Made by a program: the position numbers and the translations under genes
IMG/VR virus record: IMGVR_UViG_2671180547_000013
Direction: 5' to 3' (one strand)
DNA length: 47,489 bases
Source of the DNA: a virus
Lineage: Duplodnaviria > Heunggongvirae > Uroviricota > Caudoviricetes
Notes under the pieces: generated by a model
Seen by the model: only the letters and a program-made list of their open reading frames with translations
Told to the model about the DNA's origin: nothing
Databases searched by the model: none
In this document: positions 1,238-5,386 of the stretch, piece after piece
Position numbering within the stretch: position 1 is the first letter of the stretch
How the letters are laid out: the number at the start of each line of letters is the position of its first letter

Positions 1238-1477
1238 TCATGAGTCTTTGATAAACTGATTTATCTTTGGATAGTTATACCAGATAATCCCTCGCTTACT
1301 GTCTGGCTTCCCTAAAGGAGATACTCGTTTGAAGTGGAAGCCTTCCACCCAACAGTTCTGGCGGTATGCTTCAATTTGTCTGGCCCCCAGACCAGTGCGA
1401 AGCATCAGGCCGTATTCAACCATCCACTCTTCATTAAAGATTACTTGTGCCATCGCATCACCTCTGGCAGGCGCCAA
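1238..1477 (-). CDS. Excisionase-like small DNA-binding protein (start may be internal ATG at 1453)
   Basis: 79-aa ORF immediately upstream of int on the same strand; size and position typical of Xis (YdaQ position in Rac). Confidence 0.6.
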
Positions 1478-1552
1478 TGTTAGACTTAAATTGACGCCCG
1501 ATGTTGATTATTAATAATCAGCTATGAAGTTTTAATTTGAATACAATGCAAT

Positions 1553-1813
1553 TCACGAGGACTGAAGTTTCTCGCAATTAAAATTTATCAGTTTTACTTT
1601 CTGCTCTCTGGAAACGCCTGCTTCTTTTTTACCTGAGAGCATTTTTTCGCATTCTGATTTCGTTAGTTTAGATTTTGAATATCTTGTCCAGTTAGTAGGA
1701 GTGCCACCTTCCTTTTCAATAGTGGCGGTAATTTTATACATGAACACCTCCATTATTATTTCCAGTGGTTCGTTTATTTCATCGTTCGAGTGCTTCTTTT
1801 TCACTTCCACCAT
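1553..1813 (-). CDS. Small hypothetical protein (YdaC-position)
   Basis: 86-aa ORF from track between xis-like gene and ralR; no recognisable motif. Confidence 0.4.
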   Translation of the reverse strand: MVEVKKKHSNDEINEPLEIIMEVFMYKITATIEKEGGTPTNWTRYSKSKLTKSECEKMLSGKKEAGVSREQKVKLINFNCEKLQSS

Positions 1814-1940
1814 AACCGGTTCGGGATTCGCATCCGTTACACTTCGCTCGGTAATATCCTGAAATGGCTTTCACCGTTACTGATGGACAACCACAAAATG
1901 GACATGGTTTAACATTGTCATATCTCATAATTTTTCTCAT
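1779..1940 (-). CDS. ralR: RalR-like restriction-alleviation / DNase toxin small protein (53 aa; alternative start 1928)
   Basis: Hand translation of minus strand: MRKIMRYDNVKPCPFCGCPSVTVKAISGYYRAKCNGCESRTGYGGSEKEALER; Cys-rich zinc-ribbon-like; below the 60-aa cutoff of the ORF track; sits immediately upstream of recT as in Rac. Confidence 0.7.
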   Translation of the reverse strand: MRKIMRYDNVKPCPFCGCPSVTVKAISGYYRAKCNGCESRTGYGGSEKEALER

Positions 1941-1983
1941 AAAAATATTTCAAGTTGGCGGTGCATTACACCGCCAGGCTGAA

Positions 1984-2793
1984 TTATTCCTCTGAATTAT
2001 CGATTACACTGTATTCCCCGGTTAATACAGAGGAATCTGCAGGATCGATTGTCAGTGGTTCCTTTTCATCCATTGATACTGCACGCTGGATCTCAATTGA
2101 TACGGGCAGATATTTGAACAGGCGACGAATAGCCGTTTTCTTTGCCATTTCTTCCCAGTGAGTTACCCACGGCCCGTTATTACCAGCTTTACTCTGGCTG
2201 CGCACCAGCTCAATCTGTTTGCGCGTCATAACTTCAAACTGAGTACCTCCGTCTTTCAGTCTTGCGACAGCATAGACGTGGGTAACAGGGGCATCTTCGT
2301 TTTCTCCTGGGCGGTGTATTAACTTTTCATCAAGGCCAAATTCGAAATTAAACTCGTCACCTTCACGGACAACACGGGCTGACAGGCTGGCGATTTGACC
2401 TGAACGGCGAGCCAGATCAATCATGCCGCGATAGCCAATGATTAGCTGAACGTTTTTTTTACCGCTCTTTTCGTTTTTATTACCAAAAGGCAGTAAATAT
2501 GCATGACCGAGGGCGCTACCGGGCTCAAGTCCGAGCTGTGAACACTGTACGATTGCACTGACAAAACTCATAGTGTCACAGTTTCCTAACGCCGGAACTT
2601 TACGAATTTCTGTGGTGGCGATACGGATCATACGTTCAGCCGTCATATGGCGTGGAAGAGCTGCTGCCAGTTGCTCTTTCATTGATGGCTGGTTAATAAA
2701 ACTAATCACGTCGTTATTTTTAATTGCTGCTGGTGCACGGTTTCCCTGAGTTTTTTGCAGATCGGCTTTTGCGATTGGTGGTTGCTTAGTCAT
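1984..2793 (-). CDS. recT: RecT single-strand annealing recombinase (269 aa from [13 protein letters not shown])
   Basis: Translation matches RecT as recalled from E. coli Rac; start overlaps recE stop (ATG rc at 2791-2793). Confidence 0.9.
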
Positions 2794-5386
2794 TTGCATA
2801 TTCCTTAGCCCAGCGGGGCAGTGATAACGTCTTAATAGCTGGCCATTCATCGGTATTGAGGCAGTCAGCCAGGGTTCGCAGATTGCGGTGATATTCCAGC
2901 TGACCTGCCAGTTTTGCTTCTTCGCCCATCATGAAAATTTCAACCGGATAACGTCCGCATTCAATAGTTGTGCTGGCAACCAGAAAAACGAAAGTTGGCT
3001 GCACTCCAAACTGTGCTTCATAACCGTCACTGTAGAATGCATCCTGAACGTGATAGCGGTAGTCGTAATAAGCGGTTTTGAATCGTTGAATATCCGCCGT
3101 AGTTTTCACGTCCATGATCCAGTGAAATTCAGGGATAATTTTGTCCGGACGGCACCGACACAAAATTGCTGTTTCAGGATCTTCCCAGTAAATTGATGAT
3201 TCAGCGTGTCCGGCGCTTTCAACAAGCCATTGCCCCAGCGGCAAAGCCATAACGCTCTGATACATGAGTTCAATTTTCCGGCCTTCTTCGGCAGTGATAA
3301 CCGTTTTTCCTGTGCTTGCGCATTCCCTCAGAAACGCTTTCTCTTCTTCTTTTCCGGAGTTTGTCCGGCGGTTAAATTCAGGTGCTACGATAAAGCGGTT
3401 ACTGAATTCTTCCGGCTCAAGTACCCGGCAGTGGAAAGCGGTTCCTAAATCGAGCGTTTTTGTCTTTGTGGTGTCCACGGGGGCATTTTTACGCCACAAA
3501 TACAGTGCCGGAGTATCAGCAATGTCATCGAGCTGAGACTTACTGACACCGGGACCCGCGTGGTAATTCTCATTCGAAATTCCGTAATAAATACCTGGCT
3601 CTATGTCTTCTACGATTACGGGATCTGCGACTTCGCCAGTTTCATCACTGCAATCGCGATGCGGATCGCTGCCAGCATTCTCATTGTGCGGATGTTCAGC
3701 GCCTTCCATTTCCTCCGGATCATTTTCCTTAGCTTCAACCTGACTCTCTTCATCGAATGTTTCCTGGTATGTTGCGTCGCCCATCACCGCACCACAGTCA
3801 GGGCAGTTATCCCCGCCAGTCTGGCCGCAGGCATTGCAGGCTATTTCCGGTTCCTGTTGCACTACTGGCTCAGGTTGATTCATATCCGGGCTGGTTTTTT
3901 CCGTTTCTGGCTGGTTCTGGTACACACAATCGCGAGTCTGGATCCCCTTTACCCATTTCGGATCGTTCGGGTCGCTAATTCCGTCAACAAATTCACCACG
4001 TGATGCAGCAAGCAATTTATCGGCATCGACAGGATTTTTTGATGGAATGTTTTTCCGGGCTTCATGGAGTTCTGCCCGCAGTTCCTGATATTTCGCATCA
4101 ACAGAATTTACCTGTGACTGAGCATCCAGCGGCTGCGTGTCCTGATGATGTTCAGTTGCGTCCGGTTCCATTGTTTCAGCCTCTCCCTGTTCAACTGCCG
4201 TTGTTCCAGATGGTTGCGGTTTTTCTTCATCATCCTGTTTTCCTTCTTCTGTTACTCGCTGCGGCATCGGGGCAGAGGAGCGACCGCAGGCAATATCCAC
4301 GATTTCCGGATCAGGGTTGGCATGATCGGTTTCAGTCAGTACTTTGTTCAGATATTCAGTGACGTGCGCGGGGATGACCTCGATCCCAATTGGTGCTTCT
4401 TTTACGGACGCAACCACGATGGCGCGGGAATAATCCAGCCCGCCAGGCATGGTGATGAATTTGTCGCGGAAAACAGAAAAGGGCGGTTTATTTTCAGCGA
4501 TAATTTCCTCAATGCGTTTAGCGTGTGCCGGATGAAGGTTATAGATGTCCAGATCCATTGAACGGGCCAGTACGCCAGTGGCTACGTCCCGCGCCAGTGA
4601 CGTCAGATCGTGTACGAAACCTTCGCCGCGATCGGTGAGGTTTCCGCCGCCAGCATTAGCACCGGAAGCCGTGCGAGTGATGTGTGAAACACGATTACCC
4701 TTCATCCACTCTTTTGTCAGCAGTCCTCGATCGGTGTAGTCAGCGTTCAGGTATGCTTCGAAAAAAGCAGTTATCAGTCCCAGGTTTGAATTACCAGGAT
4801 TAGGGAAAACTTTGTCAGTGTCACGAACCAGTTTGTGGAGTTCGCGAATTTCCAGCGGGTCGAGCAGGCTGGTTTTGTGGGAAACAGCCAGGGCAGTAAC
4901 AGCCGGTAGTTCTTCAGCCCGAGCAATGTGTAATGCCTGGAGTCCGTCGCGTGAAACGTGCGTTACCGGTTTTTCGCTGCCGTGTTGAGCAAGCCAACGA
5001 ATGGGCAGTTCCTGGCCAGAAATTGGGAGTAGCATATTCTCCTCAATCTCAGGCATGTCTTCGCCGTTGACGTTGGTATTGCCTTGATAGTGAGCGTTGT
5101 CTGGTGCTGCTCCCGGTTTTAGTTCCCATGTCATGGAGTCTTTGCTGAGTTGATAGCGTTCACTCCAGGTAAAATCGATCTCACCTTCAGCGGGCAGGTC
5201 ATTAACGACAGGAAAATTCGTGGCAACAGCTTTAAAATAGCTGCTCAGTTTTTTACCTGACTTAACGATCAGGTAGTCCAGAGTGGCACAGGTCGATTCA
5301 AAATCGTTGCTTGCCCACAGGACGACGTCAGGTTCACCGGATGATTTTTTCGCTTTCCGTAACAGGAAGAGTGGTTTTGTGCTCAT
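2786..5386 (-). CDS. recE: RecE exonuclease VIII, 866 aa
   Basis: 866-aa ORF directly upstream of and overlapping recT; length and sequence consistent with Rac RecE. Confidence 0.9.

What the first reader, a model, noticed from the sequence alone, without database searches (positions are those of the whole stretch)
1779..1940. RalR-like small toxin gene missed by the ORF track; look for its antisense sRNA partner
A 53-aa Cys-rich ORF overlapping the upstream small ORF translates to a RalR-like protein. In K-12 Rac, RalR is a DNase toxin of a type I toxin-antitoxin pair whose antitoxin is the Hfq-dependent sRNA RalA encoded nearby on the opposite strand (recalled). I could not delimit ralA here, and this copy ends earlier (…EALER) than the 64-aa K-12 protein as I recall it.
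Basis: partly seen in the sequence, partly recalled or inferred. Interest (0 to 1): 0.4.

Follow-up and report, generated by a model that had tools for sequence, protein, structure and literature searches.

The report
Truncated ralR toxin gene, intact RalA
This is the already known RalR/RalA toxin-antitoxin locus of the E. coli Rac prophage: the antitoxin RNA is intact, but a stop codon cuts off conserved residues of the toxin, so this common natural copy is probably inactive.

Summary
Window 1779..1940 (-) is an open 53-codon frame. RefSeq annotates it from the second ATG (1779..1928, 49 aa, WP_001443846.1) as ralR, in the order recE-recT-ralR-rcbA-xisR-intR of a full-length Rac-family prophage beside ttcA.

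It scores 225 bits against Rfam RF02694 (threshold 170) and is 179/179 identical to K-12 ralA. It lies downstream of ralR, antisense to rcbA, not in the suggested 1750..2000 range. Both 16-nt pairing sites are intact (RalA 1619-1634; ralR 1791-1806).

The early end is a single TGG>TGA change at codon 50 (window 1779). It is a derived state: all divergent E. coli and Salmonella copies examined, and the two phage copies translated, encode 64 aa, and strain TUM1881 carries the one-step precursor. The exact allele occurs in 310 of 5,426 complete E. coli genomes.

The stop removes W50, N51 and R53, three of nine invariant residues in 69 Lar-family proteins, and K52, whose mutation abolished DNase activity (Guo 2014). 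This is most likely a disabled toxin beside a retained antitoxin RNA. It is already known and ordinary, so interest is low.

The parts
1779..1928 (-). ralR (lar) coding sequence as annotated in RefSeq: 49 codons plus a premature TGA. This is a nonsense allele of the 64-aa RalR.
   Evidence: WP_001443846.1; NF007260, 126.9 bits, profile positions 1-49 of 64.
1929..1940 (-). Four extra in-frame codons (MRKI) from an upstream ATG.
   Evidence: An in-frame upstream ATG is kept in all E. coli and Salmonella copies examined, also where the canonical ATG is TTG (L003). It is partly buried in the hairpin. The Citrobacter copy has no such extension.
1779..1781 (-). Premature stop TGA replacing Trp50 (TGG in K-12 and all other full-length copies). 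On the + strand, base 1779 is T where K-12 has C.
   Evidence: The one-step precursor haplotype CGA-TGG is found in strain TUM1881.
1734..1778 (-). Untranslated remnant of ralR codons 51-64 plus the original TAA stop. It is identical to K-12. It overlaps the rcbA Shine-Dalgarno sequence (GGAGG), the rcbA start, and the last two bases of RalA.
1791..1806 (-). 16-nt site in ralR mRNA (AAGUGAAAAAGAAGCA, codons 42-46) that pairs with RalA.
   Evidence: (D1). The site is defined in PMC4041452.
1557..1735 (+). ralA, the 179-nt Hfq-dependent sRNA antitoxin. It has a 5' stem-loop at 1558-1595 and a terminator hairpin at 1702-1727 followed by GUAAUUUU.
   Evidence: Rfam RF02694, 225.1 bits against a gathering score of 170, model positions 1-179. 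179/179 identical to MG1655 b4714. Fold.
1619..1634 (+). RalA pairing segment UGCUUCUUUUUUACCU: 11 contiguous Watson-Crick pairs, then one G:U pair, two more Watson-Crick pairs, one mismatch and a final pair with the ralR site.
   Evidence: It lies 62 nt from the RalA 5' end, as reported in PMC4041452.
1553..1741 (-). rcbA/ydaC, a 62-aa DUF1187 protein gene. RalA is fully antisense to it.
   Evidence: (PF06688, 130.8 bits). dN/dS is 0.03-0.21 against divergent copies.
1937..1995 (-). Conserved extended RNA hairpin between the recT stop and the ralR start. It is terminator-like (core GGCGGUG/CACCGCC) and lies upstream of, and partly over, the ralR translation start region.
   Evidence: dG -25.4 kcal/mol, z -5.4; I1. 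The core stem is kept while the loop varies in divergent loci.

Best explanation
The locus is the ralR-RalA-rcbA module of a full-length Rac-family prophage. In K-12 it is described as a type I toxin-antitoxin pair. RalR is a 64-aa zinc-ribbon protein of the Lar family, reported as a non-specific DNase and earlier as a restriction-alleviation protein. RalA is a 179-nt Hfq-dependent sRNA transcribed from the opposite strand inside rcbA. It blocks ralR translation by pairing over 16 nt. In this window RalA and both pairing sites are intact. ralR, however, carries a derived G>A nonsense mutation (TGG>TGA) at the invariant Trp50. Translation therefore ends after R49, in the middle of the predicted C-terminal helix. 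The product keeps the four-Cys zinc ribbon but loses W50, N51, K52 and R53. My inference is that the protein is inactive as a DNase toxin, and probably as an anti-restriction factor too. The locus would then be a disabled toxin beside a retained antitoxin RNA. RalA persists because the mutation is recent (no further decay downstream) and because its DNA is also the coding sequence of rcbA, which is under purifying selection. Shown here: gene identity, the mutation and its direction, RalA identity, the pairing sites, and family conservation. Inferred: loss of activity, and expression of either RNA in this strain.
For: Identity and synteny.
RalA.
Nonsense change against K-12.
Derived state: 64-aa copies in divergent E. 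coli loci L003-L006, Salmonella L009/L011, and phages Rac-SA53 and pPE4. The intermediate haplotype CGA-TGG is in TUM1881.
Frequency: 310 genomes carry the exact allele.
Functional importance of the lost part: W50, N51 and R53 are invariant in 69 Lar-family proteins of 30-62% identity, drawn from 1346 family hits. The Pfam and TIGRFAM Lar domains run to residue 54 in the full-length protein, and both scores drop for the truncated one (53.5 to 39.0 bits; 55.3 to 40.3 bits against a cut-off of 39.6). Guo et al. 2014 report that changes at residues 49, 51 and 52 reduce toxicity and that the purified residue-52 mutant has no DNase activity (PMC4041452).
Structure: AlphaFold2 places residues 43-58 in one helix in a full-length relative (P0004, 92% identical to K-12 RalR), and only 43-48 remain here.
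Other natural disruptions of ralR exist, namely a frameshift and ralR-rcbA fusions.
Against: No experiment on this allele was found in the literature searched. The zinc ribbon is intact, the protein still passes the NCBIfam RalR equivalog cut-off, and PGAP does not flag it as a pseudogene. The allele is common, and the 45 nt after the stop show no decay, so residual or altered function is not excluded. The AlphaFold models have only moderate confidence (pLDDT 63 and 73). The 69 aligned family members were chosen from profile hits, which favours sequences that keep the motif.
Confidence: 0.8

Rival explanations
1. The truncated 49/53-aa zinc-ribbon protein is still a working RalR toxin or Lar anti-restriction protein, so the locus is a functional type I toxin-antitoxin pair.
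For: The CxxC...CxxC ribbon is intact, and the protein scores above the NF007260 and PF14354 cut-offs. The allele is present in 310 complete genomes and is not marked as a pseudogene. RalA and both pairing sites are perfectly kept.
Against: It loses three of the nine family-invariant residues (W50, N51, R53) and K52. Published mutants at residues 49, 51 and 52 lose toxicity, and the residue-52 mutant loses DNase activity. Two thirds of the predicted C-terminal helix is removed. Retention of RalA is explained by the rcbA coding constraint.
Confidence: 0.08
2. The allele is a hypomorph. UGA at a Trp codon is occasionally read by tRNA-Trp, which would restore exactly the wild-type 64-aa protein at a low level, giving an attenuated toxin.
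For: The change is TGG>TGA, and the 14 downstream codons and the original stop are unchanged in frame. That UGA is the leakiest stop codon and that tRNA-Trp is its near-cognate reader is general knowledge, not tested here.
Against: The unchanged downstream sequence is equally explained by a recent mutation and by overlap with the rcbA ribosome-binding site and start and the RalA 3' end. Readthrough is normally well below 1% (general knowledge). No recoding signal was looked for or seen.
Confidence: 0.06
3. The toxin-antitoxin reading is secondary for the whole family. In this view lar and rcbA are early-operon phage genes (anti-restriction and DNA-break protection), and RalA is mainly a cis-antisense regulator of rcbA. 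Its 16-nt match to ralR would be a lineage-specific by-product of a short direct repeat in the two coding sequences. This rival concerns the system and is compatible with this copy being a null allele.
For: RalA is fully antisense to rcbA, which evolves as a protein gene (dN/dS 0.03-0.21). The two 'pairing sites' are a direct repeat on the coding strand. The repeat is not kept in Salmonella or Citrobacter, although the lar-DUF1187 pair is. An 11-nt perfect complement appears in 2.5% of dinucleotide shuffles. Strain M3 lacks the RalA pairing core yet keeps an intact 64-aa ralR. Lar was first described as a restriction-alleviation protein (King and Murray 1995, as cited in PMC2993543).
Against: Guo et al. 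2014 describe disrupting and compensatory mutations of the 16-nt sites, RalA supplied from a second plasmid, and Hfq dependence, all supporting direct regulation of ralR.
Confidence: 0.2
4. The premature stop is a sequencing or assembly error in this window.
For: None beyond its being a single-base difference from K-12.
Against: The identical 71-mer is found in 310 independent complete genomes, including O157:H7, O55:H7, O111:H8 and NCTC10444. The 49-aa protein has its own RefSeq accession.
Confidence: 0.01

Closest known systems
RalR/RalA type I toxin-antitoxin system of E. coli K-12 cryptic prophage Rac (Guo et al. 2014, PMC4041452; genes b1348 and b4714)
   Same: Same locus and the same gene order recT-ralR-rcbA-xisR-intR beside ttcA. 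RalA is 179/179 identical. Both 16-nt pairing sites are identical. RalR residues 1-49 are identical.
   Different: Codon 50 is TGA instead of TGG, giving 49 aa rather than 64 aa. R49 is CGA rather than AGA. The T-run before the upstream ATG is one base shorter. Base -2 relative to the RalA start differs, which also makes rcbA 62 aa rather than 69 aa. Here the prophage is full length, with head, tail and lysis genes, rather than the 23-kb K-12 remnant.
Lar family restriction-alleviation proteins (Pfam PF14354, TIGR03655; Lar of Rac, King and Murray 1995)
   Same: A small zinc-ribbon protein with CPFCG...C..C, encoded in the early-left region of a lambdoid prophage next to recET.
   Different: It lacks the invariant C-terminal W-N-x-R motif that ends the family domain.
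Other divergently or trans-encoded type I toxin-antitoxin pairs (TisB/IstR-1, ShoB/OhsC, ZorO/OrzO)
   Same: A short, imperfect sRNA-mRNA complement rather than full antisense overlap with the toxin gene (as discussed in PMC4041452).
   Different: The toxin is a soluble zinc-ribbon protein reported as a DNase, not a small membrane peptide. RalA pairs inside the coding region and is at the same time a full cis-antisense RNA of the neighbouring gene rcbA.

Membership tests
RalR (NCBIfam NF007260 equivalog) | Sequence match above the curated cut-off | tested here: met
   126.9 bits against a cut-off of 113, but only profile positions 1-49 of 64 are matched.
RalR (NCBIfam NF007260 equivalog) | Full-length 64-aa product that includes residues 49-52, shown to matter for toxicity and DNase activity | tested here: not met
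   Stop at codon 50. Residue importance comes from PMC4041452.
RalR (NCBIfam NF007260 equivalog) | Rac prophage context: recE-recT-ralR-rcbA-xisR-intR next to ttcA | tested here: met
   ORFs.
RalR (NCBIfam NF007260 equivalog) | Non-specific DNase activity and growth inhibition on expression | not testable with these tools
   This needs expression and nuclease assays. It is predicted to be lost.
Lar_restr_allev (PF14354 / TIGR03655) | Two CxxC pairs forming a zinc ribbon (C9, C12, C30, C33, with P10 and F11) | tested here: met
   The predicted fold has a three-stranded sheet.
Lar_restr_allev (PF14354 / TIGR03655) | Invariant C-terminal W-N-x-R motif | tested here: not met
   W50, N51 and R53 are invariant in 69 family members. 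All three lie beyond the stop codon here.
RalA sRNA (Rfam RF02694) | Covariance-model score at or above the gathering threshold over the full length | tested here: met
   225.1 bits against 170, model positions 1-179. Identical to b4714.
RalA sRNA (Rfam RF02694) | 16-nt complement to the ralR coding region, 62 nt from the 5' end | tested here: met
   1619-1634 against 1791-1806: 14 Watson-Crick pairs (11 of them contiguous), one G:U pair and one mismatch.
RalA sRNA (Rfam RF02694) | Transcribed, Hfq-bound, and represses ralR translation | not testable with these tools
   No consensus promoter sits directly at the mapped 5' end. The best sigma-70-like site ends 39 nt upstream. A Northern blot or RNA-seq is needed.
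Type I toxin-antitoxin system | The toxin gene encodes an active toxic protein | tested here: inconclusive
   Sequence evidence points to an inactive product, but there is no functional assay.
Type I toxin-antitoxin system | An adjacent RNA antitoxin with base-pairing potential to the toxin mRNA | tested here: met

The most novel reading that the evidence does not exclude
The TGG>TGA change at Trp50 may not be a null allele. It could be a leaky stop that is occasionally read as Trp, producing trace amounts of exactly wild-type RalR. That would be a naturally attenuated toxin still held in check by an intact RalA. Alternatively, the free zinc-ribbon fragment may have acquired a role of its own, which could explain why the allele is common (310 genomes) and undecayed.
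Probability: 0.06. Interest if true: 0.35.

Novelty: already known. Interest (0 to 1): 0.12.

Why it matters
It matters little beyond correct annotation. The locus should be labelled ralR (nonsense allele, probably inactive) plus ralA (1557..1735 +) plus rcbA. Genome surveys that count RalR/RalA as an active toxin-antitoxin system in O157:H7, O55:H7, O111:H8 and related strains probably overcount, because PGAP names the 49-aa product as the toxin without a pseudogene flag. The comparative side observations give some reason to re-examine how general the RalA-ralR toxin-antitoxin model is. These are that the pairing is not conserved outside E. coli, that rcbA is clearly protein-coding, and that one strain has lost the RalA pairing core while keeping an intact toxin gene.

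Tried and rejected
- RNAduplex of whole RalA against the whole ralR mRNA gave an unrealistic end-to-end duplex and was not informative.
- Folding RalA alone gave no energy signal above shuffles (z -0.26). The identification therefore rests on the Rfam model and identity to b4714.
- A sequence search of the PDB found no solved Lar-family structure, only spurious CbpD hits.
- Foldseek of the full-length model against the PDB gave only generic zinc-ribbon matches, with no match better than E = 0.24 and no nuclease fold.
- No supplementary files are held for Guo 2014, so the exact mutant list could not be read.
- Literature searches for the truncated allele in O157 strains found no discussion of it.
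- The EcoSal restriction-modification review does not mention Lar or RalR.
- The promoter scan found no consensus promoter placed for the mapped RalA 5' end.
- A sequencing-error explanation was rejected.
- The 86-aa ORF 1553..1813 was rejected as a gene. It is rcbA extended mechanically upstream, and the frame is open in K-12 as well.

Full report
**What is in the sequence.** The window opens inside intR. On the minus strand it then reads xisR (1238..1453), rcbA/ydaC, a small Cys-rich ORF, recT (1984..2793) and recE (2786..5386). It matches Pfam Lar_restr_allev and the NCBIfam equivalog for RalR (126.9 bits, cut-off 113).

A 501-nt query around the ORF finds 1,923 of 5,426 complete E. coli genomes. 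It is 100% identical to O157:H7 and O55:H7 strains and to several other listed strains, and 99.2% identical to K-12. RefSeq annotates the ORF in those genomes as ralR, starting at the second ATG (window 1928). The product is 49 aa, WP_001443846.1. The first 25 kb of the window match best the prophage of strain NCTC10444 beside ttcA. The annotation of that prophage shows a full-length Rac-family element with trkG, lysis, head and tail genes.

**The partner RNA.** An Rfam scan finds RalA (RF02694) at 1557..1735 on the plus strand. It scores 225.1 bits against a gathering score of 170 and covers the whole model. The sequence is 179/179 identical to ralA (b4714) as annotated in MG1655.

RalA lies downstream of ralR and entirely inside rcbA (1553..1741, minus strand) on the opposite strand. 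Guo et al. 2014 (PMC4041452) mapped the 5' end 62 nt upstream of a 16-nt segment complementary to the ralR coding region. They reported that mutating and compensating this segment, and deleting hfq, affect antitoxin activity.

In the window the RalA segment is 1619-1634 (UGCUUCUUUUUUACCU). The ralR site is 1791-1806 (mRNA AAGUGAAAAAGAAGCA). Pairing gives 11 contiguous Watson-Crick pairs, then one G:U pair, two more pairs, a mismatch and a final pair. Both sites are identical to K-12.

**Why this copy is short.** Aligned to K-12, the 501-nt region has four differences:
- TGG>TGA at ralR codon 50 (window base 1779).
- A synonymous AGA>CGA at codon 49 (base 1784).
- One base fewer in the T-run before the upstream ATG.
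- A at 1555 where K-12 has T. This is position -2 of RalA. It is also the rcbA stop codon, giving 62 aa here and 69 aa in K-12.

The 14 codons after the new stop and the original TAA are unchanged. The stop is the derived state:
- Copies that diverge by 3-8% (L003-L006), the Salmonella copies (L009, L011), and the phages Rac-SA53 and pPE4 all encode 64 aa.
- Strain TUM1881 has the one-step precursor CGA-TGG.
- The exact 71-mer with the stop is present in 310 complete genomes, so it is a real and widespread allele.

For rcbA the direction is the reverse. The 62-aa form is the common one, also in Salmonella, and the K-12 69-aa form is a derived stop loss.

**What the stop removes.**
- A profile search of 1.84 billion cluster representatives found 1,346 Lar-family proteins.
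- In an alignment of 69 single-domain members (30-62% identity to a full-length RalR), the invariant columns are C9, P10, F11, C12, C30, C33, W50, N51 and R53. The stop sits exactly on the invariant Trp and deletes the W-N-x-R motif.
- The Pfam and TIGRFAM Lar domains extend to residue 54 in the full-length protein. The truncated protein scores much lower and clears the TIGRFAM cut-off only barely (40.3 bits against 39.6).
- Guo et al. found that changes at residues 14, 37, 39, 49, 51 and 52 reduce toxicity and that the purified residue-52 mutant does not cut DNA.
- AlphaFold2 models of moderate confidence show a three-stranded zinc ribbon followed by a helix at 43-58 in a full-length relative. 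Only 43-48 remain here.
- No solved structure or nuclease fold was found for comparison.

I therefore infer, without an assay, that the product is inactive both as a DNase toxin and as a Lar-type factor. Other natural disruptions of ralR point to repeated loss of this gene. They include a frameshift and two ralR-rcbA fusions, one of which joins the two genes at the 11-nt repeat they share.

**Why RalA is still perfect.** Its DNA is also the coding sequence of rcbA. That gene is a DUF1187 protein under purifying selection, with dN/dS 0.03-0.21 against divergent E. coli and Salmonella copies. The absence of any further change in the dead ralR tail suggests the nonsense mutation is recent. The intactness of RalA is thus not evidence that the toxin still needs neutralising.

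**How strong the toxin-antitoxin model is in comparison.** These points are side observations.
- The two 'complementary' sites are a direct repeat on the coding strand of ralR and rcbA.
- An 11-nt perfect complement appears in 2.5% of dinucleotide shuffles of RalA.
- The lar-DUF1187 gene pair is conserved in Salmonella and Citrobacter, but the repeat is not.
- RalA-like scores there fall below the Rfam threshold (144 and 33 bits).
- E. coli strain M3 has a 12-nt deletion that removes the RalA pairing core yet keeps an intact 64-aa ralR.

These observations do not overturn the published mutagenesis. They suggest that the RalA-ralR interaction is specific to the E. coli Rac lineage, and that RalA may also, or mainly, act on rcbA.

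**Start codon and upstream structure.** RefSeq starts ralR at 1928. In Citrobacter that ATG has a GGAG ribosome-binding site and an upstream in-frame stop. In every E. coli and Salmonella copy examined, an in-frame ATG lies 4-5 codons upstream, also where the canonical ATG is TTG (L003). The phage Rac-SA53 record uses this upstream ATG. A strong hairpin at 1937-1995 (dG -25.4 kcal/mol, z -5.4) separates recT from ralR and partly covers the upstream ATG. Its core stem is kept in the divergent loci while the loop varies.

**Verdict.** The identification as ralR with a RalA partner is right. The short end is a derived nonsense allele that most likely inactivates the toxin. Everything here is already in RefSeq, Rfam and the 2014 paper. 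Only the functional consequence of the common truncated allele seems undiscussed in the literature I could search. Interest is low.

Noticed in passing
window 1937-1995 (- strand RNA): A strong hairpin lies between the recT stop and the ralR start (dG -25.4 kcal/mol, z -5.4). The GGCGGUG/CACCGCC core is kept while the loop varies in divergent loci, and a U-rich tract follows. It looks like a leaky terminator or a processing or stabilising element of the recET-ralR transcript, and it partly buries the upstream in-frame ATG.
   Followed up: partly
window 1553-1741 (-), rcbA/ydaC: rcbA evolves as a protein-coding gene: DUF1187 at 130.8 bits, and dN/dS 0.03-0.21 against divergent E. coli and Salmonella copies. 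Guo et al. 2014 concluded that ydaC is not translated. The K-12 69-aa form is a derived stop loss (TGA>AGA at window 1555), and the 62-aa form here is the common one.
   Followed up: partly
window 1619-1632 and 1791-1804; proteins P0012, P0015: The RalA and ralR pairing sites are a direct repeat on the coding strand. Public databases hold natural ralR-rcbA fusion proteins. One (P0012) joins the two genes exactly at this repeat, which suggests repeat-mediated deletion that would also destroy RalA. P0015 is fused at a different point.
   Followed up: no
L006 (E. coli strain M3, NZ_CP010183.1), equivalent to window 1615-1626: A 12-nt in-frame deletion in rcbA removes the core of the RalA pairing segment, while ralR remains an intact 64-aa gene identical to K-12. 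This is hard to reconcile with RalA pairing being essential to restrain RalR at native expression.
   Followed up: no
L009/L011 (Salmonella), L012 (Citrobacter): The lar-DUF1187 gene pair beside recET is conserved across genera, but the 16-nt RalA-ralR complementarity is not. RalA-like Rfam scores fall to 144 bits and 33 bits, below the threshold of 170.
   Followed up: partly
window 1491-1518 (+): The best sigma-70-like promoter match in the region (TTGACG-16-AATAAT, 10 of 12) ends 39 nt upstream of the mapped RalA 5' end, and no consensus promoter sits at the usual distance from 1557. The mapped 5' end could be a processed end or a reverse-transcriptase stop at the 5' stem-loop.
   Followed up: no
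window 17831-18017 (+): Rfam hit to the sRNA family STnc100 (RF02076, 86.6 bits, gathering score 47) in the middle of the prophage.
   Followed up: no
L015 (PP818812.1, 'Actinobacillus phage vB_Apl-pPE4'): A phage record attributed to Actinobacillus pleuropneumoniae carries a Rac-type recT-ralR-rcbA segment whose RalR is 97% identical to the E. coli K-12 protein. It annotates the mechanical 86-aa frame instead of ralR and rcbA. The host attribution looks odd.
   Followed up: no
window ~20600-47489: Unlike the 23-kb K-12 remnant, this Rac-family prophage keeps trkG together with lysis, terminase, portal, capsid, tail, Lom and tail-fibre genes, going by the annotation of the near-identical NCTC10444 prophage. 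It may therefore still be an inducible phage.
   Followed up: no
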